Assembly (NCBI GenBank): GCA_001818315.1
Contig: MHKF01000012.1
Coordinates: forward strand, 194,080 to 249,148
Length of the DNA: 55,069 nucleotides
Direction: 5' to 3'
From: Candidatus Kerfeldbacteria bacterium RIFCSPLOWO2_02_FULL_42_19
GTDB taxonomy: Bacteria > Patescibacteriota > Patescibacteriia > HO2-48-17
Shown here: piece by piece, positions 10,053 through 32,911 of the stretch
Layout: each line of letters begins with the position of its first letter
How positions within the stretch are numbered: position 1 is the first letter of the stretch
Program-made: the position numbers and the translations under genes
The notes under the pieces: generated by a model
What the model saw: only the letters and a program-made list of their open reading frames with translations
Databases searched by the model: none
What the model was told of the DNA's origin: nothing

Positions 10053-10192
10053 TTCTTGACGGCTTTCACGCAGGATGTTATAAAGGGCTGTGTTCTTTGA
10101 TTTTTTGAGATTCTTACAAAGCGAGGTTTTGGGCATTTGTTACAAACACGTAGAGAGCTCGCAGGCTTTCTATGAAAACAGGAGGCAGTTTC

Positions 10193-12073
10193 ATGAAGGC
10201 ATTTGTTGGAATAGTACTTGTGTTTGCGTCTTTCTTTCAGATCGACGTGATGTACACGGGTCAACCGTTGTGGTTGCTCTGGGGTAATTCGGAGTACATT
10301 CGTTACGATTCTGAAGCGCATGTTTGGATGAATCACAATCCTGAGATCGAAACACTATTTCGGGTACTTGATCTCTACGATCGTGTGCAGAAGCATACGC
10401 TGCCTGAGCGTGTGCCAGAGAAGAAAGAGGTCAAAATCACATTCAACCCTCGTAGCTGGATTTCCGAGAATCCGATGGAGGACATTCAGGTTGCGATGAC
10501 CTGCGCAGTAGCAGTGCCGAATCGGAGACTCAAGCTCATCAATGTTGAGCAATCGATCAATGAGCTCGGAGCGGCAGAGAATATGCAACATCGACTTTGG
10601 CCGCATCTCGGATTGCTTTTTGTTGGTACGGTCGCTGACGAAGAAGGTTGGGAAGTTGTGCTCTATGACGAGCTCATTCAAGGCTATGTTGATTTGGAGC
10701 GGTTCGTTCAGTCGGGAGATGTTGTCGGTTTGAGCTTGGTAGTGACCGGCATGGATCGCGGCATTGAGTTAGCGCGGCAGGCGAAGCGTTTCGGCGCAAG
10801 CTACTGTATAGCTGGGAACGATTCAGCAATCTTTAGAGCGGATCAACTACTCCAGCTTCCTGATCATCCGATTGATGCTGTGTTCACGACCAATAGCCTT
10901 GGAGCTATTCGTCAGTTTTTGCGACACGTCGGTTCGGTGAAGCTTTGCAACCTTGAGATACCGGGTGTTGCGGTTGTTCCGACTGGAGTGAATTTGTCGA
11001 ACGAACGTTCGGTGATTCAGGCGCAACGTGCAATGCAACAGCAACTTCGTCTGCAGGGAGTCTTCGATCCGCATGACGTGTTTGTAGTGCCAAAACTCGA
11101 CCTCTTCAGCACAGAGTATTGGCAGAAGGTGTGGAGTAATTACCGTACGATCTTCAGTCACAAACATATCAATCCGGCAGAAGTCCGCAATGCGCTTGCG
11201 CTTTTCGCACAAGGGTGCACGCGTACCGGCACGGCCGATGTGTGTTCGTACTGTACGATCGCAGGTGTTGCAGACATTCGCATGCCGATGACCGAGTACC
11301 TGAAGCGATTGTTGGAGACGTATCAGTCCTTCGGGATCAATTACGTTTTCAACGCTACGGACTCAGTGTTCGAGATGCGTTCTGTCGCTATCGATCTCAA
11401 GAGCCTTGGTGCTTTCTTTCCAGAAGGAATCATGCTTTATGGCCGTGCATGGGGTTTAGCGCATCATCCTGAACTCATTCACGAGTGGCTTTCGCTCACG
11501 GGAGGACGGCTTCTTATTAATGTCGGGATGGACTCTGGCGACGAGCGCATTCTTGAACGCGGTGTGATGAAAGCCTCGCAGTTTGGATCGCGTCTCGAAG
11601 AAAATCGGCAGGCGATACGGAACGTTGCTGCAGCCGGAGCACATTTGCACTATTCACTTGTTTTCGGTTCACCCGGAGAAACGCGCGAGACGTGTGAGAA
11701 GTCGCTGGAGTTCTTCGAATGGACGCGTTCGGTGCTTCGTGGGCAGCTTGATCAGTGTGAAGCAGACATCTACTGGCTGAATCACGGATCTCCGGCGAGT
11801 CGCGTCTTTCATGACTATGGATACGCACAGCAACTCGCGTCTCTTGCGGACAAGGAGATATCGTTCGAAACGTGGGAGCACTGTTTCCATCGTCATCGTG
11901 ATTCTCTTGCAGTTCCATGGGAATGCGAAGAGGCGTGGTACGATCATTTCACCTCGATAACCGTCGAAGAAGCGCAGAAGTGCAACGCCCAAGTTTCACG
12001 TGCGATGACTGCACACGAAGGTGCGGCACCAGGTCGTCCGGATATGTTTCGCACAGCCTTTCGACCGAGCTGA
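10193..12073 (+). CDS. B12-binding-domain radical SAM (class B-like) enzyme
   Basis: Start placed at the ATG at 10193, 7 nt after AGGAGG at 10180-10185; the track start is 10172. An N-terminal Rossmann-like segment (GLLFVGTVADEEGWEVVLYDE...VVGLSL) is followed by a Cys triad CTRTGTADVCSYC, then INVGMDSGDERILERGV and VFGSPGETRETC, which are typical of B12-rSAM cores. Confidence 0.65.
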   Translation: MKAFVGIVLVFASFFQIDVMYTGQPLWLLWGNSEYIRYDSEAHVWMNHNPEIETLFRVLDLYDRVQKHTLPERVPEKKEVKITFNPRSWISENPMEDIQVAMTCAVAVPNRRLKLINVEQSINELGAAENMQHRLWPHLGLLFVGTVADEEGWEVVLYDELIQGYVDLERFVQSGDVVGLSLVVTGMDRGIELARQAKRFGASYCIAGNDSAIFRADQLLQLPDHPIDAVFTTNSLGAIRQFLRHVGSVKLCNLEIPGVAVVPTGVNLSNERSVIQAQRAMQQQLRLQGVFDPHDVFVVPKLDLFSTEYWQKVWSNYRTIFSHKHINPAEVRNALALFAQGCTRTGTADVCSYCTIAGVADIRMPMTEYLKRLLETYQSFGINYVFNATDSVFEMRSVAIDLKSLGAFFPEGIMLYGRAWGLAHHPELIHEWLSLTGGRLLINVGMDSGDERILERGVMKASQFGSRLEENRQAIRNVAAAGAHLHYSLVFGSPGETRETCEKSLEFFEWTRSVLRGQLDQCEADIYWLNHGSPASRVFHDYGYAQQLASLADKEISFETWEHCFHRHRDSLAVPWECEEAWYDHFTSITVEEAQKCNAQVSRAMTAHEGAAPGRPDMFRTAFRPS

Positions 12074-15884: not shown

Positions 15885-18188
15885 CTATTTTTTCGTTTTT
15901 TGTTGTGTATTTTTGCAGGTTTGATTCGAACACACGTAGGTGTTATCTCTTCCAAAGACTATAAGACTTGCGCATGCCGAACATTTTTCACCGGTGGGTT
16001 TGGACCAGAGAGCAAATGTACAGTTCGGGTACGTATTACAGGAATAAAAGGTTCGTCCTTTGCGACTTCGTTTTTCTACTATTTCTCCTTTGCCGCATTG
16101 AGGACATTGAACGCCGGTAGATTTTTCTATCTTTTTGACGTACTTACAATCTGGATATCCTGAACAACCTAAGAATTTTCCAAACCGACCTGTTTTTACA
16201 ACAAGTGCTTTTCCGCATTTTTCGCATGTTTCCCCGGTGTTCTGTGCTTGTTCCGTTTGTTCTTCTTTACTGAACGGTTTTGTATTGCGACATTCGGGGT
16301 ATCCCGTGCAGGCCAGAAATTTTCCAAAACGTCCGAGTTTAATCACCATGGGTTTTCCGCATTTTTCGCATACTTCATCGGTCGCTTGTTCTACAAGATT
16401 TTTTTTATCGATTTCTTTTTCTTTCAGCATAAGATGTTGTTTGAACGGCTCATAGAAATTTTTAATGATTGGCTTCCATTCTTTTTTCCCGTCAGCAATG
16501 GCGTCGAGGTCGTCTTCGAGATTGGCCGTGAATTTGTAATCTACAATGTTGGGAAAATGCTGTACCAGGAGATCATTGACGAGCATGCCTATTTCGGTCG
16601 GTACAAAACGTTTCTCTTCTTTTTGTACATAGCCGCGTTCTATGATCGTGCTGATCGTTGGAGCATACGTAGATGGACGTCCAATTCCGTATTCTTCCAG
16701 CGTTTTTACCAGCATCGCGTCGTTATATCGCGCTAGTGGCTGGGTGAAATGTTGCTCTGCGAGCATTTCTTCAGCAAAAACTGTTTGACTTTTTTCCACT
16801 TTTGGAAGAATTGTCTCTTTATTCGCTTCAGGATAGAGCTTCAGATAGCCATCGAAAGCTATGACGGTACCGGTTGCGCGGAGGATGTATTTTTGTGGTT
16901 GGTCGGCGATATCAATCGATGTGGAACGCAATCTCGCTTCTTGTATTTGCGTAGCGAGTGCCCGACGCCAGATGAGATCATACAGTTTGAATTGCTCTCG
17001 CGTCAGGTAAGGTTGGACATTGTCTGGAGTGTATGTGACTTCTGTAGGACGAATCGCTTCGTGAGCTTCCTGAGCTAATTTTTGTTTTACTTTAAAACGT
17101 CGCGGTGATGTGAGTACGTATGATACACCAAAGTTTTGTTGAATGAATGTGCTCGCTTCCTGCAAGAATTTATCAGCGAGATGCACAGAATCAGTACGCA
17201 TGTAGGTGATGAGTCCTTCAGTGCCACGTTCACCAATACTCACACCCTCGTAGAGCTGCTGTGCTATCATCATGGTCTGTTTCGATGAAAATCCTAAGCG
17301 TTTGTTCGCTTCTTGTTGTAAGGTGCTCGTTGTAAACGGCGGCGCTGGAGATTTTTTTGTTTCTTTTTCCTGGATGTTGTGTATGTGGAATTGCGCTTTG
17401 AGGAGCTCTGTTCGCACTGCTTCTGCTGCTTCTTGATTTTTGAGCGCAAATTTTTCAAGTCTTTTACCGTCTTTTTGTATAAGTGTTGCACGGATTACCT
17501 GTGCCGTTTCTGCGTTGCTTTCATCGGGACTCTTGTGTTTCGTAATCTTTTTTTCTGTCGATCTTCGATCGGATCGGGTTGTTTGAAATACACCTTCAAG
17601 AGACCAATATTCTTGCGCTCTGAATTGTTGAATTTCGCGTTCCCTTTCGACGATCAAACGCACTGCTATTGATTGTACTCTGCCAGCGGAAAGTCCGCGG
17701 CGTATTTTTTTCCATAAAAATGGAGAGAGTTCGTACCCTACGAGTCGATCGAGAATTCGTCTTGCTTGCTGTGCGTTTACGAGATGGAGATCGATCGCGC
17801 GTGGATTTTGGAGTGCTTTCTGAATCGCATCTTTTGTAATCTCATGAAAAACAATGCGTTTTGATGTTTTGGGTTGTATCTTAAAAAGAGTCGCAAGGTG
17901 CCATGCAATACTTTCTCCCTCTCGATCTTCGTCAGTCGCAAAATAGAGTTCCTTCGCGTTCTCAGCAAGTTTTTTAAGATTCTCGATTCTTTTTTTGGCT
18001 GCTTTTGGAATAACATAGGTAGGTTCAAAATCATTTTTCACATCTACGCCCATTTTGCTTTTCGGTAAATCGCGAATGTGTCCAAAAGAAGATTGCACGC
18101 TAAATTCTTTCCCGAGAAATTTTGCAATGGTTTTTGCCTTCGTAGGAGATTCGACGATAATAAAATTTTTTGCCATGGTTTTTTTCAA
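15885..18188 (-). CDS. topA: DNA topoisomerase I
   Basis: TOPRIM start IIVESPTKAKTIAKFLG, the active-site region YMRTDS, and several C-terminal C4 zinc-ribbon repeats (CEKCGKPMV...C). Confidence 0.93.
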   Translation of the reverse strand: MKKTMAKNFIIVESPTKAKTIAKFLGKEFSVQSSFGHIRDLPKSKMGVDVKNDFEPTYVIPKAAKKRIENLKKLAENAKELYFATDEDREGESIAWHLATLFKIQPKTSKRIVFHEITKDAIQKALQNPRAIDLHLVNAQQARRILDRLVGYELSPFLWKKIRRGLSAGRVQSIAVRLIVEREREIQQFRAQEYWSLEGVFQTTRSDRRSTEKKITKHKSPDESNAETAQVIRATLIQKDGKRLEKFALKNQEAAEAVRTELLKAQFHIHNIQEKETKKSPAPPFTTSTLQQEANKRLGFSSKQTMMIAQQLYEGVSIGERGTEGLITYMRTDSVHLADKFLQEASTFIQQNFGVSYVLTSPRRFKVKQKLAQEAHEAIRPTEVTYTPDNVQPYLTREQFKLYDLIWRRALATQIQEARLRSTSIDIADQPQKYILRATGTVIAFDGYLKLYPEANKETILPKVEKSQTVFAEEMLAEQHFTQPLARYNDAMLVKTLEEYGIGRPSTYAPTISTIIERGYVQKEEKRFVPTEIGMLVNDLLVQHFPNIVDYKFTANLEDDLDAIADGKKEWKPIIKNFYEPFKQHLMLKEKEIDKKNLVEQATDEVCEKCGKPMVIKLGRFGKFLACTGYPECRNTKPFSKEEQTEQAQNTGETCEKCGKALVVKTGRFGKFLGCSGYPDCKYVKKIEKSTGVQCPQCGKGEIVEKRSRKGRTFYSCNTYPNCTFALWSKPTGEKCSACASLIVFGRDNTYVCSNQTCKNTQQKTKK

Positions 18189-18243: not shown

Positions 18244-19137
18244 TCAAATGAAAGCATAGCGCGTCCCTCCGAGTGCCGTGATAATACCTTCACATTCAAG
18301 TTGTGTGAGAGTCGCAAGGAGTTTGTCTTGCGGTAGTCCAGTTTTTTGCATCAGTTCTTCCATACTTTGTTGTGCATCCTTTACAAAACAGGTCAGGAGT
18401 TTCTGTACTTCTGGCTGTTGAGCGAATTGTTTTACTTTCGTTTTGATGATGGTTGCTGTGTGTATTTCAGGGTAGCCAAGTTCAGTGAGTATGTCATTCG
18501 GATGTGTTACAAGAAAAGCCCCGTTTTTGATGAGTGTGTTAGTTCCTGCGCTGAGTGGCGCAAAGATAGTTCCTGGGCATACAAAAACATCTTTGCCGTA
18601 TTCTGCAGCAAGTTTGGCGGTAATAAGCGCTCCACTTTTTATTGAGGCTTCAGTAACGAGGACGCCTTGTGCAAGTCCTGCAATGATGCGGTTTCTCTCC
18701 GGAAAATGTTGAGGATAGCCCGGAGTCCCTGGAGGGTATTCCGAAAGTAGGAGTCCTCCAGATGCAATGATTTTATAAGCAAGCCATATATTGGACGAAG
18801 GCGCAATGCTCGCATCGTCAATTCCTGAACCGAGGACCGCAATTGTTTTGCCTTCATTGTGTAATGTTTCTTTATGTGCCTGTGCATCTGTCCCGAGCGC
18901 CAGACCGCTCACAATAACTATTGTATGAACAAGAAGCGGCGGAATAAAAAGAGATACGAGTTGTTTACCGTATGTCGACATTTTCCGCGAACCTACGAGA
19001 GCAAACATCTTTTGAGATTGTAAGAGTGTGTGATCACCTCGGTAGTACAGTTTTTGTGGAGGATCGTGAATATTTCTCAGTTGCTGAGGATAGATTGAGT
19101 CGTTCGGTGTAATGTATTGGATAGTATTCTGGGTCAT
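18244..19137 (-). CDS. dprA: DNA-processing protein DprA/Smf
   Basis: LVGSRKMSTYGK, GLALGTDAQAH and PERNRIIAGL motifs, plus a C-terminal winged-helix-like tail. Confidence 0.85.
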   Translation of the reverse strand: MTQNTIQYITPNDSIYPQQLRNIHDPPQKLYYRGDHTLLQSQKMFALVGSRKMSTYGKQLVSLFIPPLLVHTIVIVSGLALGTDAQAHKETLHNEGKTIAVLGSGIDDASIAPSSNIWLAYKIIASGGLLLSEYPPGTPGYPQHFPERNRIIAGLAQGVLVTEASIKSGALITAKLAAEYGKDVFVCPGTIFAPLSAGTNTLIKNGAFLVTHPNDILTELGYPEIHTATIIKTKVKQFAQQPEVQKLLTCFVKDAQQSMEELMQKTGLPQDKLLATLTQLECEGIITALGGTRYAFI

Positions 19138-20509
19138 TTTTTGACGTGTTTATTTCCAAAAGAAGGAGGCGTCGGAAAAAGGGAAACCCTACCAATCGGG
19201 TTTTTCGGATACCGAGTTCAATGACAACAAAAATACAGCGGTTGCCCACTGATTTTTTTTGAGAAGTTATTTCCCAAACTTTTGGGGATCAGCTCTTTGA
19301 CGAGCGTGATCTGATCCTCACAAGTTTGGGAGGGAGACGCAAGTGATGCATCTCCCAGCGGATTGAAGGAACAAATTTAGAAATTTAGAGCGAGGCGGTT
19401 GTTGATTGGTGCGTGAAGCATTGAAAGAATGCATTGCCCTTTTCAAGGCTCAAGAAGACTAAGTTCCATGAAAGAAACCTAGAAATCACTTGCAAACAAT
19501 CGCAGCAACACGAGGAGCATACTCCTTCTTCGAAGTAAGGATCAAAGTTACACGTGACATTTCTGTCTTCAAGATCTGACTTGTTTTCTTCTCCTGTGAT
19601 AGAGAAGAAGCAAATTTTGATATAATTTTTACTCTTTATTCAAAGAGAAAAATTTACGTGTGTTTATGACAGGTTACTGCCGTTTTACTCTTACGAGTTC
19701 TTCTGTTTCCCAACAGAAGCCGGGAGCTTCTCTCGAAATCAGTAGATCTCTTGCGAGAGTCAACACAATAGCGTGAGAAGATCAGGAGAACAAGTATCTC
19801 CTCAGTTACGTTCTTTTCTTGCGAGTTTTTGTGGCTTTGGAAAGTCACCAAGAAAAGAAGAGGTATACACCTGCAAACTTTTTGTGACATGTTCCATTGA
19901 GGTTATCTCAGGAATTTTCTCTCAGGGACTGTCCTGAAAGAATTCAGATTTGTACCGGTGAAGGCACCTCTACACGTCACACATGCTTCTTCTCCATTAT
20001 TATCTTTATAAAGTTCTAGATTACTCCAGAACACCCGAAGCAAACTAATCCTGTAAAAGGAATCCCATCTCCTTTTTTGGAAAACTTCTTTCTGATAAAT
20101 CAGTCAGAAGTAACCATACTTTGAAGGCAAGTTTCTTCTTACAAAAAAGTTTTGTGTACGTCTGCGGTTGCAGATAATTTTAGGAGTTCCAATCAACATC
20201 CTTACGCTCCTGCAAGTTCTCTAACAGTGAGTCGTTGATATTCACTTTGCGTTACAGCGCTCACAGGAGCGATGGATGTATTCATTTTCAATGAACCTTT
20301 TTTCAGAGTGATAGTACTCATGATAGCGTCCCTCGAAATACCTGTCAAGATCCTCCATGAGATCGAATTTACATTTCACTTTTTATCTTATTTCAGCAAA
20401 TAAATTGAATTTTTCGATTTTCCTCGCTATGTTGCTGTGGAAAACTTTTGTAATTTTTACCTGTTAAAAATAGCGGGTCTGTGGATAACTTTTTTGGAGA
20501 TGTATCTTC
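19138..20509. other. 1,372-bp ORF-free, hairpin-dense region (candidate large ncRNA or long structured leader of dprA-topA)
   Basis: The only track ORF is an implausible 78-aa reading frame. At least 10 local perfect stems of 5-11 bp lie between 19270 and 19950. There is a promoter-like site on the minus strand at 20348-20320. Confidence 0.35.
20320..20348 (-). promoter_or_regulatory. sigma70-like promoter (TTGACA - 17 nt - TATCAT) pointing into the ORF-free region
   Basis: The minus strand from 20348 to 20320 reads TTGACAggtatttcgagggacgcTATCAT: a perfect -35, a 17-nt spacer and a 5/6 match at -10. Confidence 0.45.
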
Positions 20510-21607
20510 TTAGAGTGCGTTAACGATGTCGATGATGTGTTGAACGTCTTCGTCTCCAAGGCCGGGATAAATAGGAAGAGAGAGAATACTTTGACTCGCT
20601 TCCTCTGCTATTGGAAGAGTGGAATAACGAGTATTTGTCTGGAAGGCGGGAAGCAGGTGGAGCGGCCAGGGGTAATGCACCTGAGTATGAATATCATTTT
20701 CGGCAAGTTTGACTTGCAGAGAATCGCGTTTGCCATCTTTGACACGAATGACATAAAGATGGAAGACATGCTTTGCTTCTGGAGAGCGTGTCGGTTTTAT
20801 GATGAGTGGGTTTGTAATTCCTGCATCATACTGCGCGGCAATATTTTGACGTAAAGATATCCAGTCATCAAGTTTTTGGAGTTTTGTTCTCAGGATCGCA
20901 GCCTGTAATTCATCGAGACGACTATTATAGCCTGGTTTGATATGATAATACTTTTTGGTTTGTCCACCGACTTTTAGAATATTTATTTCGTCCGCGAGTT
21001 TCGCATTGTTGGTCACAATAACGCCGCCATCGCCTATAGCTCCAAGATTTTTAGTCGGGTAAAAACTGAAGCAGCTTATATCTCCAAACGTACCAATTTT
21101 TTGGCTGTTCCAACTCGCCCCGTGTGCTTGGCAGGCATCTTCGATAAGAAAGAGTTGATGTTCCTGAGCGATTTTTGAGATTGCTTCGATGTTCGCTGGT
21201 TGGCCGAAGAGGTGAACAGGCAGAAGTGCTTTTGTTTTTGGGGTAATAGCGGATTCGATCAGGGTTTCGTCGATATTATAGGTATGCAGGTTAATATCAA
21301 CAAAGACTGGTGTAGCGCCTGTTGCCAATACAGGCAGACTTGTAAAGGCTGCAGTTAAAGGCGTAGTTATCACTTCGTCGCCTTGTCCTATACCAAGAGC
21401 TTTGAGAGCTAAAAAAAGCGCGTCTGTGCCATTTCCTACACTCACGCAATGTTTTGTGCCGATGTATTCGGCAAATTCTTTTTCAAAAGCCTGTACTTCT
21501 TTTCCAAGAATATATATGCCGCTTTCCAGCACCCGTTCTATAGCATCGTGGATATTCTCTTTGATGAGCTCGTATTCCTTCTTTGGAAAGGAAGTGTAGA
21601 GGGGCAT
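20510..21607 (-). CDS. DegT/DnrJ/EryC1/StrS-family PLP-dependent sugar aminotransferase
   Basis: Family motifs GNGTDAL, HLFGQPA and SFYPTKNLGAIGDGG. Start moved to ATG 21607 (MPLYTSF...), which removes the 41-nt overlap with the upstream gene. Confidence 0.85.
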   Translation of the reverse strand: MPLYTSFPKKEYELIKENIHDAIERVLESGIYILGKEVQAFEKEFAEYIGTKHCVSVGNGTDALFLALKALGIGQGDEVITTPLTAAFTSLPVLATGATPVFVDINLHTYNIDETLIESAITPKTKALLPVHLFGQPANIEAISKIAQEHQLFLIEDACQAHGASWNSQKIGTFGDISCFSFYPTKNLGAIGDGGVIVTNNAKLADEINILKVGGQTKKYYHIKPGYNSRLDELQAAILRTKLQKLDDWISLRQNIAAQYDAGITNPLIIKPTRSPEAKHVFHLYVIRVKDGKRDSLQVKLAENDIHTQVHYPWPLHLLPAFQTNTRYSTLPIAEEASQSILSLPIYPGLGDEDVQHIIDIVNAL

Positions 21608-21611
21608 ATTT

Positions 21612-22613
21612 TTATGACCAATAATGGGAGCGATGTTTGCGATAGTAGTCAAATGTTTTGGTGAGACCTTCAGTTAATGAAATGTGCGGTTCCCAGCCGA
21701 GTTCGTTTTTTATTTTCGCATAATCTCCATAGAAATCCCCGATATCTATTTTCTTTTTTTCTTCCGGAAAGGGAACGAGTCGGTATTCTCCCTTGGCGTT
21801 GACTTCTATCATGCGTTTTACGAGATCAAGCAGAGAAATCGGTTCCCCACCAAGATTGTATACTTTTCCTTTCGCTTTATCGTCTATGCCGGATAACAAA
21901 AAAGCATCTACAACATCGTCAACGAAATTAATATCGCGAATTTGTTCGCCGGTACCAAAGAGTTGAATAGTTTTTCCTTCAATGAGCAAGCGGATGAACC
22001 AGGGAATAAAACCTTGTTTACTGTGTTTCATGAGTTGTCGTGGACCAAAGGTATTCGTGAGGCGGAGAGCAACCGTATTCATGCCATAGATATCATGATA
22101 GAGTTTGTGATACCATTCTCCAGCTGTTTTATTGATGCCGTTAATATCAGTAGGATTGATGGGATGATCTTCATTGACAGGTAAATATTTTGATCGTCCA
22201 TATATTTGTCTTGTTGAGGCAAAGACGATACGTGCTGCGGGATTATGTTGGTGCGCGGTTTGGAGGAAAGCGAGTTGGCTCACACAGTTGATGGCTAGAT
22301 CGGTTTCGGGGTCGGTCATGCTGTCAATATGACTTACCTGTCCAGCAAGGTTGAAAATGATATCTTTATTTTTTAACAAATAGGGTAAGCCGAATATATC
22401 GCGCATATCAGAAATGTTCACCTGTACTTTTTCTCGAATGGGTTCGATATTAAAAAGATTGCCGCCATAGGTATCGATCATAGAATCAAGCACCATCACA
22501 TGAGCTCCAAGATCGACGAGTTTTATAGCGAGATTACTGCCAATAAAACCGAGACCGCCGGTGATGAGTATGTTTTTCCCGCGGTATTTTTGGTATTGAT
22601 TTTCGTAATTCAT
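21612..22613 (-). CDS. extended SDR (NAD-dependent sugar epimerase/dehydratase family)
   Basis: N-terminal ILITGGLGFIGSNL Rossmann motif, and LRLTNTFGPRQ late in the protein. The expected YxxxK site reads NGINK (see findings). Confidence 0.8.
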   Translation of the reverse strand: MNYENQYQKYRGKNILITGGLGFIGSNLAIKLVDLGAHVMVLDSMIDTYGGNLFNIEPIREKVQVNISDMRDIFGLPYLLKNKDIIFNLAGQVSHIDSMTDPETDLAINCVSQLAFLQTAHQHNPAARIVFASTRQIYGRSKYLPVNEDHPINPTDINGINKTAGEWYHKLYHDIYGMNTVALRLTNTFGPRQLMKHSKQGFIPWFIRLLIEGKTIQLFGTGEQIRDINFVDDVVDAFLLSGIDDKAKGKVYNLGGEPISLLDLVKRMIEVNAKGEYRLVPFPEEKKKIDIGDFYGDYAKIKNELGWEPHISLTEGLTKTFDYYRKHRSHYWS

Positions 22614-22674
22614 ATTGCTCTTATTCTAACATTTCAGATTTTTCTCTGTCAATTTTTTCGTCCGGCATTTTTAT

Positions 22675-23847
22675 TTATTTTTCAGCGATTTTTTCTATTT
22701 TTTCCGCCATGCTTTCGATAGTGTAGTGAGTTCTGAAAAGTTCTTTCGCGGATTGTTTCATGTGCGGTAAGAGATTCTCTTTTGTGAGCGCCGTGGTTAT
22801 GGCGTTGGCGAGATCAACTGGAGTGTTCTGTGTAGTTATACCTGCGTGCATCGCATCGAGATAAGGCATTTCTGCTTGTGGAACAGTAATGACCGGTACG
22901 CCGAAGCTTAATGCTCGCACGGCGGCAAGGGATGTTTCTTCATAGAAATCGGGTGCGAATACAAACAAATCAGCCACTTGATAAGCGACGGCATTCTCTG
23001 CGCCGTACAACGGTCCAGTTTCGATAATGTTGTCACGAAGATGGCAGCGATCGATGCACTTCCTCATTGTTGGTTGATAGCCATCGTCCCTGCCGACGAT
23101 AATGAGTTTGGTCTGGTGCTTGAGTGCCAATGGGAGTTTGTTGAGAGCGTACATTATAGTGTCTATGCCCTTAAGCTTATGAATCCTGCCTACAAAGAGA
23201 AGGAGTTTTGTTGTTTTTTCAATGTGGTATTTTTGGCAAAAGGCGTTTATAGTATCCTCGGAAATTATCTCGATCGTTTTTTGCGCAGCGAGCGGTATGA
23301 TGTGAATGCGCTCTTTTTTTCCACCCATGGTTTGATAATCCTGTACCTCATGTTGCGTTTGCGCAAGTAGGGCTTTTGCTTGTTGTACGAGTTTTCTCCC
23401 TATCAACACATCAAACAGGACTTTGAGCAGATATTTACTATCTTTCGGTTTTTGAATTTGTCCAAAGGCGGAAAGGCAGTATGGCTTTTGAAATTTTTTC
23501 AAGAATGGAAATATTTTTGCGTTCAGAGCATGACGCAAATCAGAAAGATAGATAAAGTCCGCCCACGAAACGTGGTTGATCAGCGTTGTTGTGTTCAGCC
23601 CTCTTGGAAGAATAATTTTTGTTTTCCATGCAAGCATGTTACTTATCGTTCGGTAGCGGAATATTTCTCGGTTTCCTTCTGTCTCATGGAGTTGCTCTAC
23701 GCGTTTTTTTTTATCGAGTACATCCGTGGTGATGATACGTACGGTATGATGTTTGGCAAGTTCTTTGGAGAGTTCACTCACGATTCTCGGTGGGCCACCG
23801 TAGCCCCACGCTGGTTCAAAATAGGGAATGCTGATCAGAATTTTCAT
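22675..23847 (-). CDS. glycosyltransferase, GT4 (GT-B) family
   Basis: N-terminal GGPPRIV pattern and C-terminal EETSLAAVRALSFGVPVI, an E-x7-E-like motif. Confidence 0.75.
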   Translation of the reverse strand: MKILISIPYFEPAWGYGGPPRIVSELSKELAKHHTVRIITTDVLDKKKRVEQLHETEGNREIFRYRTISNMLAWKTKIILPRGLNTTTLINHVSWADFIYLSDLRHALNAKIFPFLKKFQKPYCLSAFGQIQKPKDSKYLLKVLFDVLIGRKLVQQAKALLAQTQHEVQDYQTMGGKKERIHIIPLAAQKTIEIISEDTINAFCQKYHIEKTTKLLLFVGRIHKLKGIDTIMYALNKLPLALKHQTKLIIVGRDDGYQPTMRKCIDRCHLRDNIIETGPLYGAENAVAYQVADLFVFAPDFYEETSLAAVRALSFGVPVITVPQAEMPYLDAMHAGITTQNTPVDLANAITTALTKENLLPHMKQSAKELFRTHYTIESMAEKIEKIAEK

Positions 23848-24617
23848 CGTTTTATAATTGAGTAAAGTGCGATTACGAGCCCGGCATGTAATTTATGGAG
23901 AAAGTGTAACAAGGGGTTTTGGGTGTATTTTTGAGCAACCAACGTTTCTTCTTGGAACTGTTTGTGGAATTGTGTGGAACTTTTACTTGTCCTATGAATG
24001 CGAAAACGAGCTAGCGTCACTGACAGAAAGCCGGGGGCATACTTTTTTCCCAGGCGCAGCCAGTATTCATAATCCATCACTAAATGTTGGGATTCATCGA
24101 ACCATCCCACTTCGTTCATGGCACTTCTCCGCCAAAAACAGGCTGGTTGGCAGATGTAATCCGTAATAAGGAGCGTCCACAGACGATAGTGACTCATGAG
24201 GATGTTCTTGTAAAAAGTGATAGGTTTTTGGATTTCTTCTCCTTTTTCATTGATGATTTTGCATTTTCCGTAGGCCCATTGTTTTCCGGGATTTTCTATA
24301 AAAAATTGATGAATCTTTTGCAGTGCCCCGGGTTCATAGACATCATCGGCATTGAGAAATCCTAGGATATCTCCTGTAGCCATCTTGAGACCTTTATTGA
24401 TCGCATTGGTTTGTCCGTTATCAGGTTCGGAAAGATAGCGAATGTGTGGATATCGCTCCGCGAGTTCTTTAATACTATTGAGTGTTGTATCCGATGATTG
24501 TCCGTCCACAATAATATGCTCTACTTCAAGATTTCCGATATTGTCTGCGATGGACAGAATCGTTGCACGAATGAATTGTTCCTGATTGCGGCAGGGAGTG
24601 ATGATGGAAATTTTCAT
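23844..24617 (-). CDS. glycosyltransferase, GT2 family
   Basis: MKISIITPCRNQEQFI...IIVDGQSSDTT...NADD is the classic GT2 N-terminal layout. Start set to ATG 24617. Confidence 0.8.
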   Translation of the reverse strand: MKISIITPCRNQEQFIRATILSIADNIGNLEVEHIIVDGQSSDTTLNSIKELAERYPHIRYLSEPDNGQTNAINKGLKMATGDILGFLNADDVYEPGALQKIHQFFIENPGKQWAYGKCKIINEKGEEIQKPITFYKNILMSHYRLWTLLITDYICQPACFWRRSAMNEVGWFDESQHLVMDYEYWLRLGKKYAPGFLSVTLARFRIHRTSKSSTQFHKQFQEETLVAQKYTQNPLLHFLHKLHAGLVIALYSIIKR

Positions 24618-24631
24618 GGTCGGTAGTGAGT

Positions 24632-25582
24632 CTATGGAAAACGTGCCACAATACTTTTTTCGTTGCTGGTATACCAAGCGATGGTGGCACGAATGCCCTG
24701 TTCCAAGGAGTGTTGTGCTTTCCATCCGAGAGCGTGTATCTTGCTGACGTCGAGGAGTTTTTGTGGTGTCCCGTCGAGTTTTTGGCTATCGTAAGTTATG
24801 TTTCCTTGGAAGTCGATGCAATTTTTTATGAGCATTGCCAATTCTGCAATTGTGAGGTCCATCCCCGTGCCGATATTTATTATTTCGGGCTCATTATAGT
24901 GTTCCATGAGAAAGAGTACAGCATCAGCAAGATCATCCACGTAGAGAAATTCGCGGCGTGGTTTTCCTGTACCCCACAACACGACTGAAGATGCGTTGCG
25001 TTTTTTTGCTTCATAGAATTTTCGGATAAGTGCCGGTAAGACGTGTGAGTTCTTCAGATCGAAATTGTCGTTGATTCCAAAGAGATTGGTCGGCATAACA
25101 GCAATACCGTTGAGACCGTATTCTTTATGCAGTGCCTGCATGAGTTTTATGCCGGCAATTTTCGCTATAGCGTAGGGTTCGTTAGTCGGTTCGAGGAGGC
25201 CTGTCAGCAGATATTCTTCTTTCAAAGGTTGCGGTGCGAGTTTAGGATAGATGCAGCTACTTCCCAAAAAAAGCAATTTGCGAACGCCGTGTTGATATGC
25301 GCTCCAGAGAACATTATTTTGAATCTTCAGATTTTCATAGAGAAATTCGGCTGGATACGTATTATTGGCGTTAATACCTCCAACCTTTGCGGCTGCCAAA
25401 AAAACATATTCCGGTTTATTGACAGTAAAAAATTGCTTTACTGCTTGTTCATTTGTTAAGTCCAGTTCTTCTTTGGAACGAACAAGAATGTTCGTAAATC
25501 CTTCTTTTTGTAACCGACGTACGATCGCAGATCCAACAAGACCTTGGTGTCCCGCAACAAAGATTTTTGCCGTTTTTTCCAT
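24632..25582 (-). CDS. fcl: GDP-L-fucose synthase (GDP-4-keto-6-deoxymannose 3,5-epimerase/4-reductase)
   Basis: IFVAGHQGLVGSAI, LGSSCIYPK and NEPYAIAKIAG motifs. It lies adjacent to gmd. Confidence 0.88.
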   Translation of the reverse strand: MEKTAKIFVAGHQGLVGSAIVRRLQKEGFTNILVRSKEELDLTNEQAVKQFFTVNKPEYVFLAAAKVGGINANNTYPAEFLYENLKIQNNVLWSAYQHGVRKLLFLGSSCIYPKLAPQPLKEEYLLTGLLEPTNEPYAIAKIAGIKLMQALHKEYGLNGIAVMPTNLFGINDNFDLKNSHVLPALIRKFYEAKKRNASSVVLWGTGKPRREFLYVDDLADAVLFLMEHYNEPEIINIGTGMDLTIAELAMLIKNCIDFQGNITYDSQKLDGTPQKLLDVSKIHALGWKAQHSLEQGIRATIAWYTSNEKSIVARFP

Positions 25583-25601
25583 GCAATCTTATGTGACGAT
25601 A

Positions 25602-26729
25602 TTATGTAGTTATGAATTTTTTTTGCAATCTTTTTTCAAACTTCTCATGCTGATCTTCAATTGCTTCAATGGCTTCGAACGCGTCATCTTTCGTTTTTTT
25701 GGAAGCGAAGTGCTTATAATCTGCTTCGGTCATGATTTTGATAAGTTCTTTGAATTTTACTCGCGGTTCCCAACCGAAATCTTTTTTAGCTTTTGAGTAA
25801 TCGCCGATGAGTAAGTCCACTTCTGTTGGTCGATAATAGCGTGCATCAATATTGATAATTTCTTTGCCGGATGTACTATCAATGCCTTTTTCTTCGAGAC
25901 CCTCGCCTGTCCATTGTATGTTGATACCAAGATGCTTGGCCGCTTCGATAATAAATTCTCGTACCGTATGAGTTTCGTTGGTGGCAATCACATAATCATC
26001 TGCTTTTTCTTGCTGCATCATCATCCACATAGCTGTTACATAATCAGGGGCATATCCCCAATCGCGTTTGGCATCGAGGTTCCCGAGGTACAGTTTTTCG
26101 TCGATGCCGAGTTTTATTTTAGCGAGGCTGCGAGTGATTTTGCGAGTGACGAATGTTTCCCCGCGGCGGGGTGATTCGTGATTGAAGAGGATGCCGTTCC
26201 AGGCGCGCATGTTGTAGGCTTCACGATAGTTTTTCGTTATCCAATATCCGAAGACTTTTGCTACACCATAGGGAGAACGAGGGTAGAACGGTGTATTTTC
26301 CTTTTGGGGCATTGTTTGCACTTTGCCGAACATCTCTGACGATGATGCTTGATAGACACGTATGTCAGGATTTGTTTCTTTCACTGCGTCGAGGACTTTC
26401 AGTGTGCCGAGTGCATCCACCATAGCGGTGTATTCTGGAATATCAAAGCTGACACGCACATGGCTTTGGGCACCGAGATTGTAAACTTCCTCAGGTTTGA
26501 TTTTTTGGATGATTTTCGTGAGGTTGGTGCCATCGGTGAGATCACTGTAATGCAAAAACATTCGTGCATTATTGATGTGAGGATCCGTGTATAAATGATC
26601 AATACGTCCAGTATTAAAGGTACTAGCACGACGAATTGTTCCATGTACCTCATATCCTTTAGAGAGGAGAAGTTCGGCAAGATAGGATCCATCTTGTCCA
26701 GTTATGCCAATGATAAGTGCTTTTTTCAT
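25602..26729 (-). CDS. gmd: GDP-mannose 4,6-dehydratase
   Basis: [42 protein letters not shown] and [10 protein letters not shown] are hallmark Gmd motifs. Confidence 0.93.
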
Positions 26730-27073
26730 AAATGTTTTACTTTAATGCTTGAAAGTTCGGATAGAGCCTTCTGTCGTACTTTATTTTCCAATCTTTTCTC
26801 CAGTCGAGTAATGAGGAGATAATTATGAAAAGAAAGGGATAGTACCATTACAAAGGCACCAATAGCGAAGAGATCGAATGCCCGGGCTATGCCGAGACGT
26901 TCAGTGATGACATTAAAACGATCGGGAAGTATCGTAACGATAATAAAACCGAACCAGAGGATTTCCCAGATAACGAATTGATAGCGATTGAACTCATGGC
27001 GTTTATAGTGAAGAAAACTGAGATATACCATAATGAGTCCGAAGATGCTCGCAATGATTTGTATACTTGTCAT
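26726..27073 (-). CDS. DUF2304-like small membrane protein
   Basis: About 115 aa with 3-4 TM helices, an LGIARAFDL motif and a C-terminal coiled tail, next to a GT2 gene. This is the usual DUF2304 context. ATG 27073 gives an ATGA overlap with the upstream stop; the alternative start is 27085. Confidence 0.6.
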
Positions 27074-27732
27074 AGAAATTTCCACTTGAGAATTTGAACG
27101 AGGATTTTCATACCATCAATGGCGGTCGTTCCTTTGTATTCATCCAGGTAAATAGTGTCGATATCTATTTCGGCGAATTTCAATTTATTTTCTCCCATAC
27201 GAATGATCATTTCGGTTTCCACTTCATAACCGCTGCTTTTCCAACGCAGCATTTCATATGCTTCACTTGTGAAAGCGCGAAATCCAGATTGGGTGTCTCT
27301 TACAAAGACGCGGAAAAGTTTTTGAATAGTTTTGGAAAGAAGGCGATTTCCGAGCAACATTATGACGGGCATGTTGCTATTAAACTGTCTGGTGCCAAAA
27401 ACAACATGCACGTTTTTTTCCTCCAGAGTGCGAATAAAATGGGGAATATTTTCTGGCTTGTGTTGGCCATCGGCATCCATACATACCATGATGTCTGCGC
27501 CAAGTTTCCTTGCTGCATCACAGCCGGTTTTCAAGGCTGCGCCTTTGCCGAGATTCACTTCATGCCGTAAGCCAATCACCTTTGTGTCCGTCTGGAGAGC
27601 TTTTTCTAGGGTATCGTCCGTGGATCCATCGTCAACAACGATAATGCTGTCAGTATGAGGCAGTGTGCTTTTTATGACTTTTTCAATATTTTTCGCTTCG
27701 TTGTGGGCAGGAATAATAACGGTTACGGACAT
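27070..27732 (-). CDS. GT2 glycosyltransferase, polyprenyl-phosphate sugar synthase-like (DPM1/GtrB-like)
   Basis: VTVIIPAHNEAKNIEKV...IVVDDGSTDDT...MDADGQH...DTQSGFRAF motif series. Start set to ATG 27732. Confidence 0.8.
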   Translation of the reverse strand: MSVTVIIPAHNEAKNIEKVIKSTLPHTDSIIVVDDGSTDDTLEKALQTDTKVIGLRHEVNLGKGAALKTGCDAARKLGADIMVCMDADGQHKPENIPHFIRTLEEKNVHVVFGTRQFNSNMPVIMLLGNRLLSKTIQKLFRVFVRDTQSGFRAFTSEAYEMLRWKSSGYEVETEMIIRMGENKLKFAEIDIDTIYLDEYKGTTAIDGMKILVQILKWKFL

Positions 27733-27813
27733 ATTTTCTCTTGGATTACCCGTATTATGGAATAATAGAAGCATTTTTTTGCACTTTCGTCAAACGAAAT
27801 TTATACGTAAACG

Positions 27814-27840
27814 TAAGAAACGGTATTCGGCAACAGTCCC
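27814..27840. repeat. short intergenic repeat, copy 2
   Basis: TAAGAAACGGTATTC at 27814-27828 is identical to 14246-14260, and the following 12 nt are similar. It lies in the divergent spacer between the GT2 and ThDP-enzyme genes. Confidence 0.5.
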
Positions 27841-27905
27841 GCAAAGTATTGAAAAACGCACCGAAGTACTCTAGGATAAAGGTGAATCTGAGCCTTTATA
27901 ATCAT

Positions 27906-29549: not shown

Positions 29550-29565
29550 AAAGTAGGAAAAATCT

Positions 29566-30930: not shown

Positions 30931-30940
30931 ATCAGTATTT

Positions 30941-32817: not shown

Positions 32818-32911
32818 ATTTTTCGTTCAAGTAACTATTCGCTGAATTTCTTTACTATATCGGTTTTATTTTTTAGGTGTCAAGCGATATGAACTCGAAT
32901 GCACGCGTACT

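What the first reader, a model, noticed from the sequence alone, without database searches (positions are those of the whole stretch)
19138..20509. 1.37-kb ORF-free, hairpin-dense gap between dprA and the glycan operon: candidate large ncRNA or giant structured leader
Most other genes in the window are separated by about 100 nt or less, or overlap at ATGA junctions. In contrast, 19138-20509 has no ORF longer than 78 aa in any frame. The short ATG ORFs I translated by hand (13-43 aa) lack sensibly spaced SD sites.

The segment 19270-19950 is packed with local inverted repeats with perfect stems:
- 19272-19281/19322-19331, enclosing 19284-19292/19311-19319
- 19332-19337/19351-19356
- 19586-19593/19602-19609
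- 19632-19637/19642-19647
- 19700-19707/19712-19719
- 19730-19735/19754-19759
- 19784-19789/19797-19802
- 19811-19821/19849-19859, enclosing 19831-19838/19841-19848
- 19912-19916/19941-19945

A near-consensus promoter lies on the minus strand (TTGACA-17 nt-TATCAT, 20348 to 20320). A weak hairpin (19184-19203) plus a T5 run lies just before the dprA start. Together these would bracket a minus-strand RNA of about 1.1 kb. However, three stem positions are G:T on the plus strand and would be C:A on the minus strand, so the transcribed strand is unresolved.

ACACGT occurs four times in either orientation, at 19144, 19550, 19656 and 19972. I do not recognise tmRNA, RNase P, SRP, 6S, rRNA or group I/II intron signatures.
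Basis: partly seen in the sequence, partly recalled or inferred. Interest (0 to 1): 0.78.

Follow-up and report, generated by a model that had tools for sequence, protein, structure and literature searches.

The report
Conserved 1.1-kb structured RNA before dprA
The 1.37-kb gene-free gap upstream of dprA in this groundwater candidate-phyla-radiation (CPR) bacterium most likely encodes a previously undescribed, heavily folded non-coding RNA of about 1.1 kb, which would be longer than the roughly 600-800 nt quoted from memory for the known large bacterial RNAs OLE, ROOL and GOLLD.

Summary
Window 19138-20509 has no ORF over 78 aa, no Pfam or Rfam match, and all 11 listed hairpins are at the stated coordinates.

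The only close relative found, L036 (DprA 64% identical), carries the same element directly upstream of dprA, although its upstream neighbour is pth rather than DegT.

- **Conservation:** the element is 67-69% identical over more than 1,000 nt. Four-fold degenerate sites in dprA are only 30% identical.
- **Not coding:** about 30 indels are mostly not multiples of three, and substitutions show no codon periodicity.
- **Structure:** folding energy is far below shuffles (z = -10.4 on the minus strand, -5.8 on the plus strand; coding controls about 0). The signal is confined to 19200-20400. A structure predicted from the window alone keeps 28 compensatory pairs in L036, against 3-6 in slid controls and 9-15 in coding controls. 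These include a long-range helix spanning about 790 nt.
- **Signals:** a sigma-70 promoter (20348-20320, 48 of 50 nt conserved), two conserved DnaA boxes upstream, and a conserved intrinsic terminator (19251-19226) bracket a minus-strand RNA of about 1,086 nt.

My best reading is a new large structured ncRNA whose terminator also gates dprA-topA. No transcript data exist, and only two species carry it.

The parts
20480..20488 (-). DnaA-box 1 (TTATCCACA, perfect consensus), inside a conserved 15-mer AAAAGTTATCCACAG
   Evidence: One search gives the pattern match: 6 boxes in the window against 1.33 expected. One search shows it invariant in L036. (family D1) shows it repeated 44 nt away.
20436..20444 (-). 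DnaA-box 2 (TTTTCCACA; TTATCCACA in L036), the second copy of the AAAAGTTWTCCACA repeat
20380..20405 (-). Conserved AT-rich island (ATTTATTYGCTRAAATAARATAAAAA) between the DnaA boxes and the promoter; role unknown
   Evidence: alignment columns 126-151. The flanking columns are poorly conserved.
20320..20348 (-). Sigma-70-type promoter: TTGACA (20348-20343), 17-nt spacer, TATCAT (20325-20320). Inferred transcription start about 20313 +/- 3.
   Evidence: 11 of 12 matches. (48 of 50 nt identical in L036, spacer included). (best match in the window; the other 11-of-12 minus-strand matches at 22652 and 32883 sit just upstream of gene starts).
19226..20316 (-). Body of the predicted structured RNA, about 1,086 nt from the inferred start (about 20313) to the terminator U-run
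   Evidence: Conservation is 67-69% against 30% at dprA four-fold sites. There is no coding signal. z = -10.4. 28 compensatory pairs. The local z-score signal is confined to 19200-20400.
20205..20271 (-). 5' hairpin H3 (arms 20271-20251 and 20225-20205; 18 pairs)
   Evidence: paired in 100% of cells, with 1 compensatory and 3 one-sided changes. inverted repeat I3.
19397..20201 (-). Large central domain closed by long-range helix H5 (20201-20189 pairs with 19409-19397; GGAUGUUGAUUGG/CCAAUCAACAACC in the window, GUGUGUACAUUGG/CUAAUGUACACAA in L036)
   Evidence: 12 pairs counted, 3 with changes on both sides, 95.8% of cells paired. One search gives the arm sequences. inverted repeat I9.
19811..19859 (-). 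Hairpin H22/H23 (11-bp stem UUCUUUUCUUG/CAAGAAAAGAA enclosing a small hairpin)
   Evidence: (2 compensatory pairs)
19700..19719 (-). Hairpin H26 (CUUCUGUU-GGGA-AACAGAAG, GNRA-type loop)
   Evidence: (2 compensatory pairs, 100% paired)
19272..19356 (-). 3' hairpins H41 (19356-19332) and H42 (19331-19272; about 18 pairs)
   Evidence: inverted repeat I1; H42: 94% paired, 1 compensatory pair
19226..19251 (-). Intrinsic terminator: CAGUGG-GCAA-CCGCUG followed by UAUUUUUGUU
   Evidence: One search shows the stem, the GNRA loop and the downstream U-run conserved in L036, with U.G changed to U-A. The A-run that would make it bidirectional is not conserved. In L036 the dprA ATG lies inside the U-run.
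19138..19225 (-). 88-nt window-specific spacer before dprA, with a second weak terminator-like hairpin (19203-19184 plus T5). It is absent from L036 and no promoter-like site was found.
18244..19137 (-). dprA, the gene directly downstream of the element in both species. topA follows at 15885-18188.

Best explanation
The gap holds a gene for a non-coding, highly structured RNA of about 1.09 kb on the minus strand, the same direction as dprA-topA.

**Proposed mechanism**
1. Transcription starts at about 20313 from a conserved sigma-70 promoter. That promoter lies downstream of two conserved DnaA-box repeats, so DnaA may modulate it.
2. The RNA folds into three parts: a 5' hairpin, a large multi-branched domain closed by a long-range helix (20201-20189 pairing with 19409-19397), and two 3' hairpins.
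3. It ends at a conserved intrinsic terminator (19251-19226).
4. I favour the terminated 1.09-kb species as the functional product. It would be a stable, stand-alone large structured RNA of the OLE/GOLLD/ROOL kind, probably working with protein partners or as an architectural RNA.
5. The fraction of polymerases that read through the terminator supplies the dprA(-topA) message, because no separate dprA promoter is visible.

**Shown here:** conservation under purifying selection, absence of coding signal, excess structure, compensatory changes, and conserved promoter and terminator sequences.

**Inferred only:** that it is transcribed, where its exact ends lie, that DnaA acts on it, that it acts in trans, and what it does biochemically.
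For: **Conservation**
- The only close relative (L036; DprA 64%, Pth 65% identical) has the element directly upstream of dprA.
- Identity is 67-69% over more than 1,000 ungapped nt. dprA four-fold degenerate sites are 30% identical, which is saturation.

**Non-coding**
- Six-frame Pfam search finds nothing significant (one sub-threshold hit, E = 0.074).
- About 30 indels are mostly not multiples of three.
- The longest frame open in both species is 38 codons. Substitutions fall evenly on the three codon positions, and changes that alter the amino acid far outnumber silent ones.

**Structure**
- z = -10.4 (window) and -8.4 (L036) on the dprA-sense strand. Coding controls give -0.9 to +0.5.
- The signal is limited to 19200-20400, which is exactly the stretch between promoter and terminator.
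- RNAalifold consensus energy is -194, against -89 +/- 8 for column shuffles.
- On a sequence-only alignment, the structure predicted from the window alone keeps 28 pairs through changes on both sides. Slid controls give 3-6, and pair shuffles give 13.9 +/- 2.5 (0 of 500 reach 28).
- Three coding genes of equal divergence give 9-15 compensatory pairs. Among pairs that changed, 47-49% stay paired in the element, against 21-36% in those genes.
- The long-range helix spanning about 790 nt has 3 compensatory pairs.

**Strand and ends**
- The promoter is 48 of 50 nt identical.
- Energy in excess of shuffles is 85 versus 51 kcal/mol (window) and 81 versus 41 kcal/mol (L036), favouring the minus strand.
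- The terminator hairpin is conserved, and its U-run is conserved only in the minus-strand sense.

**Not a known family**
- Rfam finds nothing at gathering thresholds or at E <= 10 in either species.
- ARAGORN finds no tRNA or tmRNA gene.
Against: - There is no expression evidence of any kind.
- Only two species carry the element, so covariation has limited power. The 44-helix model is a minimum-free-energy prediction in which many pairs are probably wrong: 78 pairs are broken in L036.
- The direct G.U versus A.C strand test is only weakly in favour of the minus strand (58:43 against 47:53). One conserved stem position is A.C on the minus strand and G.T on the plus strand.
- In L036 the dprA start codon lies inside the terminator U-run, and no dprA promoter is seen in the window either. 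The RNA is therefore physically the 5' leader of any dprA transcript. This fits the purely cis-regulatory rival equally well.
- A 10-of-12 or better promoter match is not rare by chance, so the promoter call rests on its conservation.
Confidence: 0.5

Rival explanations
1. Giant cis-acting leader only. The roughly 1.06-1.09-kb structured RNA is the 5' untranslated region of the dprA-topA message. It acts as a sensor or attenuator whose fold decides whether polymerase stops at the terminator just before dprA. The terminated fragment has no function of its own.
For: - The element is directly upstream of dprA, in the same orientation, in both species, although the upstream neighbours differ (DegT versus pth).
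- In L036 the dprA ATG lies inside the terminator U-run, which leaves no room for a separate promoter.
- No promoter-like site is found in the window's 88-nt spacer.
- More distant relatives (L044, L046) have a short dprA leader made of a promoter, a terminator-like hairpin and a T7 run ending at the ATG. Attenuator-style control of dprA may therefore be ancestral.
Against: - By my recollection it is several times longer than any known riboswitch, T-box or attenuator leader.
- The main domain is closed by a long-range helix and is separated from the terminator by two stable hairpins.
- No sequence of 5 nt or more complementary to either terminator arm, which could act as an anti-terminator, exists elsewhere in the RNA in either species.
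- There is no Rfam cis-regulatory match.
Confidence: 0.27
2. The functional molecule is read from the plus strand, as an RNA antisense to the direction of dprA. Alternatively, the hairpins act in single-stranded DNA.
For: - The plus strand also folds better than shuffles (z = -5.8 in the window).
One of these is kept in L036 (columns 1039/1072).
- Compensatory changes alone cannot tell the two strands apart.
Against: - Energy excess is about 1.7-2x larger on the minus strand in both species.
- One-sided changes that keep pairing number 47 on the minus strand against 28 on the plus strand.
- There is no conserved plus-strand promoter or terminator. The only plus-strand promoter-like site matches 9 of 12 positions, inside the element.
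- The run that would serve as a plus-strand terminator tail is not conserved in L036.
Confidence: 0.08
3. A DNA-level element: a replication origin, a DnaA-titrating or DnaA-regulated locus, or a partition site, with the hairpins incidental.
For: - Two conserved DnaA boxes lie 44 nt apart, next to a conserved AT-rich island.
- parA, parB, topA and dprA are close by.
- ACACGTG resembles half of a parS site.
Against: - Cumulative GC skew rises steadily across the whole 55-kb window, whatever the gene orientation, with no turning point near 20 kb.
- No DnaA family was found among the window proteins scanned with Pfam, and dnaN was not specifically looked for.
- There are only two boxes, and both lie outside the conserved structured kilobase.
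- The CACGTG motifs are not conserved in L036.
- DNA-binding sites do not explain 28 compensatory pair changes or 1 kb of continuous conservation.
Confidence: 0.05
4. A decayed gene, a relic of mobile DNA, or a recently exchanged neutral sequence, possibly with one or more unrecognised micro-proteins, and no RNA-level function.
For: - Gene callers placed short ORFs here in some assemblies: 38, 39 and 98 aa in the window's population, and 113 and 66 aa in L036.
- The distribution is very narrow, at two species.
Against: - The called ORFs are not conserved in frame between the two species.
- There is no Pfam match in any frame.
- A six-frame search of 5.8 billion proteins found nothing at E <= 10.
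- There is no other copy in the window and no match in the phage or plasmid collections.
- Conservation is about 68%, while neutral sites are saturated at 30%.
- Invariant blocks coincide with promoter and terminator signals, and stems show compensatory changes.
Confidence: 0.05

Closest known systems
Large 'ornate' bacterial ncRNAs: OLE (RF01071), GOLLD (RF01998), ROOL (RF03087)
   Same: - A long, highly structured, non-coding bacterial RNA with many helices and GNRA-type loops.
- Conserved well above neutral.
- Discrete promoter and terminator signals.
- No known biochemical function.
- Found by noticing an unusually long, gene-free, structured intergenic region.
   Different: - No sequence or structure match to any of them.
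- About 1.09 kb, against roughly 600-800 nt (from memory).
- The host is a CPR/Patescibacteria groundwater bacterium, not Firmicutes, Lactobacillales or phages.
- Known in only two species.
- Preceded by DnaA boxes and fused to the dprA-topA unit.
- There is no evidence here for oligomer formation or for a partner protein.
6S RNA (ssrS) co-transcribed with ygfA, and other ncRNA genes that share a transcription unit with the next gene
   Same: An ncRNA gene lying directly upstream of, and in the same orientation as, a protein gene that appears to depend on read-through or processing of the same transcript.
   Different: By my recollection 6S RNA is about 180 nt and has a defined open-promoter-mimic fold. 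There is no match here. This comparison rests on established knowledge and was not tested as homology.
Terminator-based attenuator and riboswitch leaders (for example T-box and riboswitch expression platforms)
   Same: The order is promoter, structured RNA, intrinsic terminator, then the start codon of the downstream gene. In L036 the ATG lies within the U-run.
   Different: - Several times longer than any known leader, by my recollection.
- No anti-terminator complement found.
- No match to any Rfam cis-regulatory family.
Bacterial oriC and DnaA-box clusters
   Same: Two DnaA boxes that are consensus or differ at one position, next to an AT-rich island, in a region rich in chromosome-maintenance genes (parAB, topA, dprA).
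   Different: - No GC-skew switch.
- No DnaA family among the window proteins scanned.
- Only two boxes.
- The conserved kilobase is a folded, covarying sequence rather than a box array.

Membership tests
OLE / GOLLD / ROOL / HEARO and all other Rfam 15 families | Match to the family covariance model (sequence plus secondary structure) | tested here: not met
   cmscan at gathering thresholds over the whole window found only 3 tRNAs. At E <= 10 with permissive filters on 18900-20800 and on the L036 element, only scattered chance hits appeared (snoRNA and sRNA families). No family was shared between the two species.
Group I / group II introns | Catalytic core (for example group II domain V) detectable by covariance model; usually an intron-encoded protein | tested here: not met
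   No intron family hit at E <= 10. There is no ORF over 78 aa and no Pfam hit in any frame.
tmRNA / tRNA / RNase P / SRP / 6S housekeeping RNAs | Covariance-model or ARAGORN detection | tested here: not met
Generic kind: functional structured ncRNA | Conservation above the neutral rate without coding signal | tested here: met
   67-69% identity against 30% at four-fold sites. Indels are out of frame. Substitutions are even over the codon positions.
Generic kind: functional structured ncRNA | Thermodynamic stability beyond composition, and compensatory base-pair changes | tested here: met
   z = -10.4 and -8.4, against about 0 in coding controls. 28 compensatory pairs, against 3-6 (slid), 13.9 (shuffled) and 9-15 (coding controls). 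Power is limited to two sequences.
Generic kind: functional structured ncRNA | A discrete transcript with defined ends | not testable with these tools
   Only predicted signals are available: the conserved promoter and the conserved terminator. One 1,382-nt JGI contig (L042) spans exactly 19209-20590, but the type of that dataset is unknown.
Terminator-based cis-regulatory leader (riboswitch/attenuator) | Intrinsic terminator directly upstream of the regulated gene | tested here: met
   Terminator at 19251-19226. In L036 the dprA ATG lies in its U-run.
Terminator-based cis-regulatory leader (riboswitch/attenuator) | Mutually exclusive anti-terminator pairing with a terminator arm | tested here: not met
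   No complement of 5-6 nt or more to either arm exists elsewhere in the RNA in either species. G.U-containing alternatives were not searched exhaustively.
Chromosomal replication origin (oriC) | Cluster of DnaA boxes with an AT-rich unwinding element | tested here: inconclusive
   Two conserved boxes and one AT-rich island. This is fewer boxes than typical origins, and no repeated 13-mers were seen.
Chromosomal replication origin (oriC) | GC-skew polarity switch; usual linkage to dnaA/dnaN | tested here: not met
   Cumulative skew is monotonic over 55 kb. No DnaA family among the window proteins scanned; dnaN was not specifically looked for.
Pseudogene / decayed protein gene | Detectable similarity to a protein family, or an intact ORF in relatives | tested here: not met
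   Pfam six-frame: no family at E <= 0.01; one sub-threshold hit at E = 0.074. A 5.8-billion-protein search with all six frames: none. L036 has only unconserved short ORFs. More distant relatives lack the region altogether.
Repeat arrays (CRISPR, TIGR, tandem repeats) or MITE-type mobile repeats | Repeated units, or multiple dispersed copies | tested here: not met
   TRF finds only a 17-nt trivial repeat. There are no repeat families beyond chance-size pairs. There is no second copy in the window. The rest of the genome could not be searched.

The most novel reading that the evidence does not exclude
This is the founding member of a new class of giant (over 1 kb) ornate RNA in CPR/Patescibacteria. 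By my recollection of the sizes of OLE, ROOL and GOLLD, it would be larger than any described structured bacterial RNA apart from the ribosomal RNAs. Its expression would be tied to DnaA, and so to the replication cycle. It would act in trans, as a ribonucleoprotein scaffold, an RNA-only assembly or a ribozyme, in DNA processing or chromosome maintenance alongside DprA and topoisomerase I.
Probability: 0.3. Interest if true: 0.88.

Novelty: new variant of a known kind. Interest (0 to 1): 0.74.

Why it matters
Bacterial non-coding RNAs longer than about 500 nt with conserved, complex folds are very rare, and by my recollection the known examples (OLE, GOLLD, ROOL) have pointed to unusual biology.

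CPR bacteria have very small genomes. Keeping 1.1 kb of folded, non-coding sequence under purifying selection, with DnaA boxes on one side and dprA-topA on the other, implies a function worth that cost.

If it is a stand-alone RNA, it extends the size range and the taxonomic range of large structured RNAs, and it gives a concrete target for cryo-EM and for RNA-protein studies in an uncultured lineage.

If instead it is a 1-kb leader, it would be by far the largest bacterial cis-regulatory RNA. It would also point to unexpected control of DNA-uptake and recombination genes in organisms thought to depend on scavenged DNA.

Tried and rejected
**Searches for more homologues (none found beyond L036)**
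1. Twenty-four contigs carry the identical DprA. All come from one population at about 100% identity, so they carry no information.
2. The GTDB species-representative scan with DprA gave a best hit of 42% identity (Doudnabacteria). nhmmer found no element in any of the 27 loci.
3. DprA and Pth searches of 5.8 billion proteins each gave a single relative above 53% identity. The lineage is therefore sampled only twice.
4. I concatenated all six reading frames of the gap into one query, to fish for spurious ORF calls on homologous loci. Nothing scored E <= 10.
5. A metagenome scan with the invariant 18-mer GAGTACTATCACTCTGAA returned only the same Rifle population plus 5 chance hits.
6. Three scans of viral contigs, and blastn against the phage and plasmid collections, found nothing real.
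7. The next-closest DprA and Pth relatives (L044-L047) lack the element.

**Ideas rejected**
- *Alternative genetic code:* all three stop codons are frequent in every frame.
- *Origin of replication:* no GC-skew switch.
- *parS / ACACGT motif:* not conserved in L036.
- *Tetraloop-receptor and RNase-P-like short motifs seen by eye:* not in the right structural context and not supported by Rfam.
- *Riboswitch-type anti-terminator:* none found.

**Technical note:** my first dinucleotide-shuffle script hung and was replaced. One search also hit the time limit, after printing three of its six results.
Full report
**1. The observation**

The window's minus strand carries a run of glycan genes ending with DegT (20510-21652). 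Then comes the gap, then dprA (18244-19137), topA (15885-18188) and relA/spoT. Because both flanking genes are on the minus strand, the gap lies downstream of DegT and upstream of dprA.

- Its longest ORF is 78 aa.
- Every frame has 15-26 stops of all three kinds.
- The six translated frames give no significant Pfam hit; one sub-threshold hit at E = 0.074.
Nine are fully Watson-Crick and two carry one G:T on the plus strand.
- The promoter-like site TTGACA-17-TATCAT (20348-20320, minus strand) matches 11 of 12 positions.

The structure is far beyond chance. For 19222-20316, the minimum free energy is -356 kcal/mol, against -271 +/- 8 for dinucleotide shuffles on the minus strand (z = -10.4). 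On the plus strand z = -5.8. Four coding stretches of the same length give z from -0.9 to +0.5. In 200-nt sliding windows, strongly negative z-scores occur only between about 19200 and 20400, and they are stronger on the minus strand.

**2. Known families**

Rfam 15 finds nothing in the gap at gathering thresholds. At E <= 10 it finds nothing but scattered chance hits. ARAGORN finds no tRNA or tmRNA gene. There are no tandem arrays. There is no second copy in the window, and no match in the phage or plasmid collections.

**3. Relatives**

The identical DprA occurs on 24 contigs. All belong to one groundwater population (JGI C687J scaffold names and an ANAN16 ENA record; I take these to be the Rifle aquifer site, which I did not verify) at about 100% identity, so they are uninformative.

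In 5.8 billion protein clusters, DprA has a single relative above 50% identity (P0002, 64%). Pth shows the same picture. The lineage is an unnamed CPR/Patescibacteria branch sampled only twice.

The relative's contig, L036, reads der, pth, a 1.26-kb gap, then dprA. That gap aligns with the window's gap over its whole length: blastn gives 71% over 999 nt with 46 gap openings, plus a 139-nt 3' block (MAFFT alignment).

The window also has der (36800-38164) and pth (36245-36796, 65% identical to L036 Pth). Here, about 15.7 kb of glycan and other genes lies between pth and the element. The element therefore stays with dprA while the upstream side has been rearranged exactly at its 5' edge.

More distant relatives lack the element. 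This holds for DprA or Pth relatives at 53% identity or less (L044-L047), and for 27 GTDB loci.

**4. Selection and coding potential**

Between the two species, dprA is 64% identical in protein and 67% in DNA. Its four-fold degenerate sites are only 30% identical, so neutral sites are saturated. The element is 67-69% identical over 1,023-1,200 ungapped columns. It is therefore under purifying selection about as strong as that on the neighbouring gene.

It is not coding:
- About 30 indels are mostly 1, 2, 4, 5 or 8 nt long.
- The longest frame open in both species is 38 codons.
- Substitutions are spread evenly over the three codon positions, and changes that alter the amino acid greatly outnumber silent ones.
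- A search with all six frames against 5.8 billion proteins found nothing.

**5. Anatomy from the alignment**

Upstream there are discrete conserved islands separated by poorly conserved sequence:
- two copies of AAAAGTTWTCCACA 44 nt apart, containing DnaA boxes (TTATCCACA at 20488-20480 and TTTTCCACA at 20444-20436);
- an AT-rich island (20405-20380);
- the promoter block, with 48 of 50 nt identical including the spacer.

From the promoter onward, conservation is continuous for about 1.1 kb. It ends at a hairpin, CAGUGG-GCAA-CCGCUG, followed by a U-run (19251-19226). The stem, the GNRA loop and the U-run are all conserved, with one U.G to U-A change. The A-run that precedes the hairpin in the window, and would make it bidirectional, is not conserved.

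In L036 the dprA ATG lies inside the U-run. The window has 88 extra nucleotides with a second, weaker hairpin and no promoter-like site. These signals bracket a minus-strand RNA of about 1,086 nt, running from about 20313 to about 19228.

Sigma-70-like promoters appear to be used in this genome. Two of the other three 11-of-12 minus-strand matches (22652 and 32883) sit just upstream of gene starts; the third (38958) lies inside the LytR-family gene. Matches of this quality are not rare by chance, so the promoter call here rests on its conservation.

**6. Structure conservation**

RNAalifold on the two sequences gives -194 kcal/mol, against -89 +/- 8 for column shuffles and -140 for the reverse complement.

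To avoid circularity, I predicted a structure from the window sequence alone and counted how it fares on the sequence-only MAFFT alignment.
- Of 360 pairs, 28 are kept through changes on both sides.
- When partners are slid by 1-3 columns, only 3-6 are kept.
- Pair shuffles give 13.9 +/- 2.5, and 0 of 500 shuffles reach 28.

The same procedure on dprA, der and pth alignments of equal divergence gives 9-15 compensatory pairs. There, 21-36% of changed pairs stay paired, against 47-49% in the element.

Well-supported helices are:
- the 5' hairpin 20271-20251/20225-20205;
- hairpins at 19859-19811 and 19719-19700, each with two compensatory pairs;
- the 3' hairpin 19331-19272;
- a long-range helix, 20201-20189 with 19409-19397, in which 3 of the 12 counted pairs changed on both sides (GGAUGUUGAUUGG/CCAAUCAACAACC against GUGUGUACAUUGG/CUAAUGUACACAA).

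That last helix closes a domain of about 790 nt. This argues for one large fold rather than a string of unrelated hairpins.

With two sequences the model is necessarily rough, and 78 predicted pairs are broken in L036.

**7. Strand**

Evidence for the minus strand:
- the conserved promoter and the sense-specific terminator tail;
- an energy excess over shuffles of 85 versus 51 kcal/mol in the window and 81 versus 41 kcal/mol in L036;
- more one-sided pair-preserving changes, 47 against 28.

The direct G.U versus A.C test is only weakly in favour (58:43 against 47:53). One conserved stem position is A.C on the minus strand. I put the minus strand at about 85-90%.

**8. What it is and how it works**

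The evidence establishes a conserved, non-coding, highly structured element with promoter and terminator signals. That describes a gene for a large structured RNA.

Two mechanisms compete.

*(a) A stand-alone RNA.* The terminated 1.09-kb product is the functional molecule, and read-through supplies dprA. I favour this for three reasons. The fold is a closed multi-domain architecture. It is several times longer than any known leader, by my recollection. No anti-terminator complement to the terminator arms exists.

*(b) A giant cis-regulatory leader of dprA-topA.* This is supported by the strict linkage to dprA, by the lack of any room for a dprA promoter in L036, and by outgroup relatives (L044, L046) that have a short promoter-hairpin-T7-ATG leader before dprA.

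The two are not mutually exclusive.

The DnaA boxes suggest that DnaA influences the promoter. An origin of replication is unlikely, because cumulative GC skew rises steadily across the whole window whatever the gene orientation, and no DnaA family was found among the window proteins scanned.

**9. Comparison with what is known**

In kind, the element resembles the large ornate bacterial RNAs OLE, GOLLD and ROOL. It matches none of them. By my recollection of their sizes it is longer than all of them. It occurs in a CPR bacterium and has a distinctive context of DnaA boxes and dprA-topA. Literature searches found no description of a large ncRNA in CPR/Patescibacteria or upstream of dprA.

**10. 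Verdict**

The feature is real and under selection, and is very probably an RNA. It is most likely a new family of large structured ncRNA. Its function is unknown and no transcript has been verified. Only two species carry it, which limits statistical proof of the fold. Interest is high for RNA biology. The decisive tests are read mapping for ends and strand, and a wider nucleotide-level homology search.

Noticed in passing
window 20510-36245, compared with L036 1819-2400: In the relative, pth is followed directly by the RNA element. In the window, about 15.7 kb lies between pth and the element: DegT, epimerases, glycosyltransferases, DUF2304, a TPP enzyme, an aldehyde dehydrogenase, a methyltransferase and two proteins with no Pfam match. 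This is a glycan-gene island gained or lost exactly at the 5' edge of the element.
   Followed up: partly
L044 about 1150-1230; L046 about 320-405; L036 3616-3643: In this clade dprA has no visible Shine-Dalgarno site. Its ATG directly follows a hairpin plus a T6-T7 run. In L044 and L046 a TTGACG-17-TACACT promoter lies only about 15-20 nt upstream of that hairpin, giving a promoter-terminator-ATG arrangement that suggests attenuation control of dprA.
   Followed up: partly
L042 (JGI C687J35504_10089723), which equals window 19209-20590: A 1,382-nt contig, 100% identical, spans almost exactly the element. It runs from 80 nt inside DegT to 17 nt past the terminator U-run. If that dataset is a metatranscriptome, this would be a transcript assembly. 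The dataset type could not be checked.
   Followed up: no
window 1-55069: GC skew is positive on the plus strand across the whole window, although from 14.3 kb onward most genes are on the minus strand. If the skew marks the leading strand, most genes here are on the lagging strand.
   Followed up: no
window 20794 (inside DegT), seen in L006: One JGI contig of the same population carries an 11-nt insertion (AGACACGCTCT) inside DegT, which would shift the reading frame. It is either a strain variant or an assembly error.
   Followed up: no
window 17720-17826 (topA), seen in L007: One contig differs at 33 positions within about 100 nt at its end, while the rest of it is identical. This is probably a chimeric contig end or a recombinant variant.
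   Followed up: no
window 145-1479, 2136-4502, 7155-8843, 8880-10052, 32912-34675, 34794-36248: Six long ORFs of 390-788 aa have no Pfam match at all. The 633-aa ORF at 10172-12073 has only a sub-threshold radical-SAM hit.
   Followed up: no
window 50546-54895: A 1,449-aa minus-strand ORF has only a faint BNR/YCF48-like repeat hit. It is a very large protein of unknown function.
   Followed up: no
window 678, 15682, 28814, 44699: Four further TTWTCCACA DnaA-box matches occur in the window, making 6 in total against 1.33 expected by chance. Their conservation was not examined.
   Followed up: no
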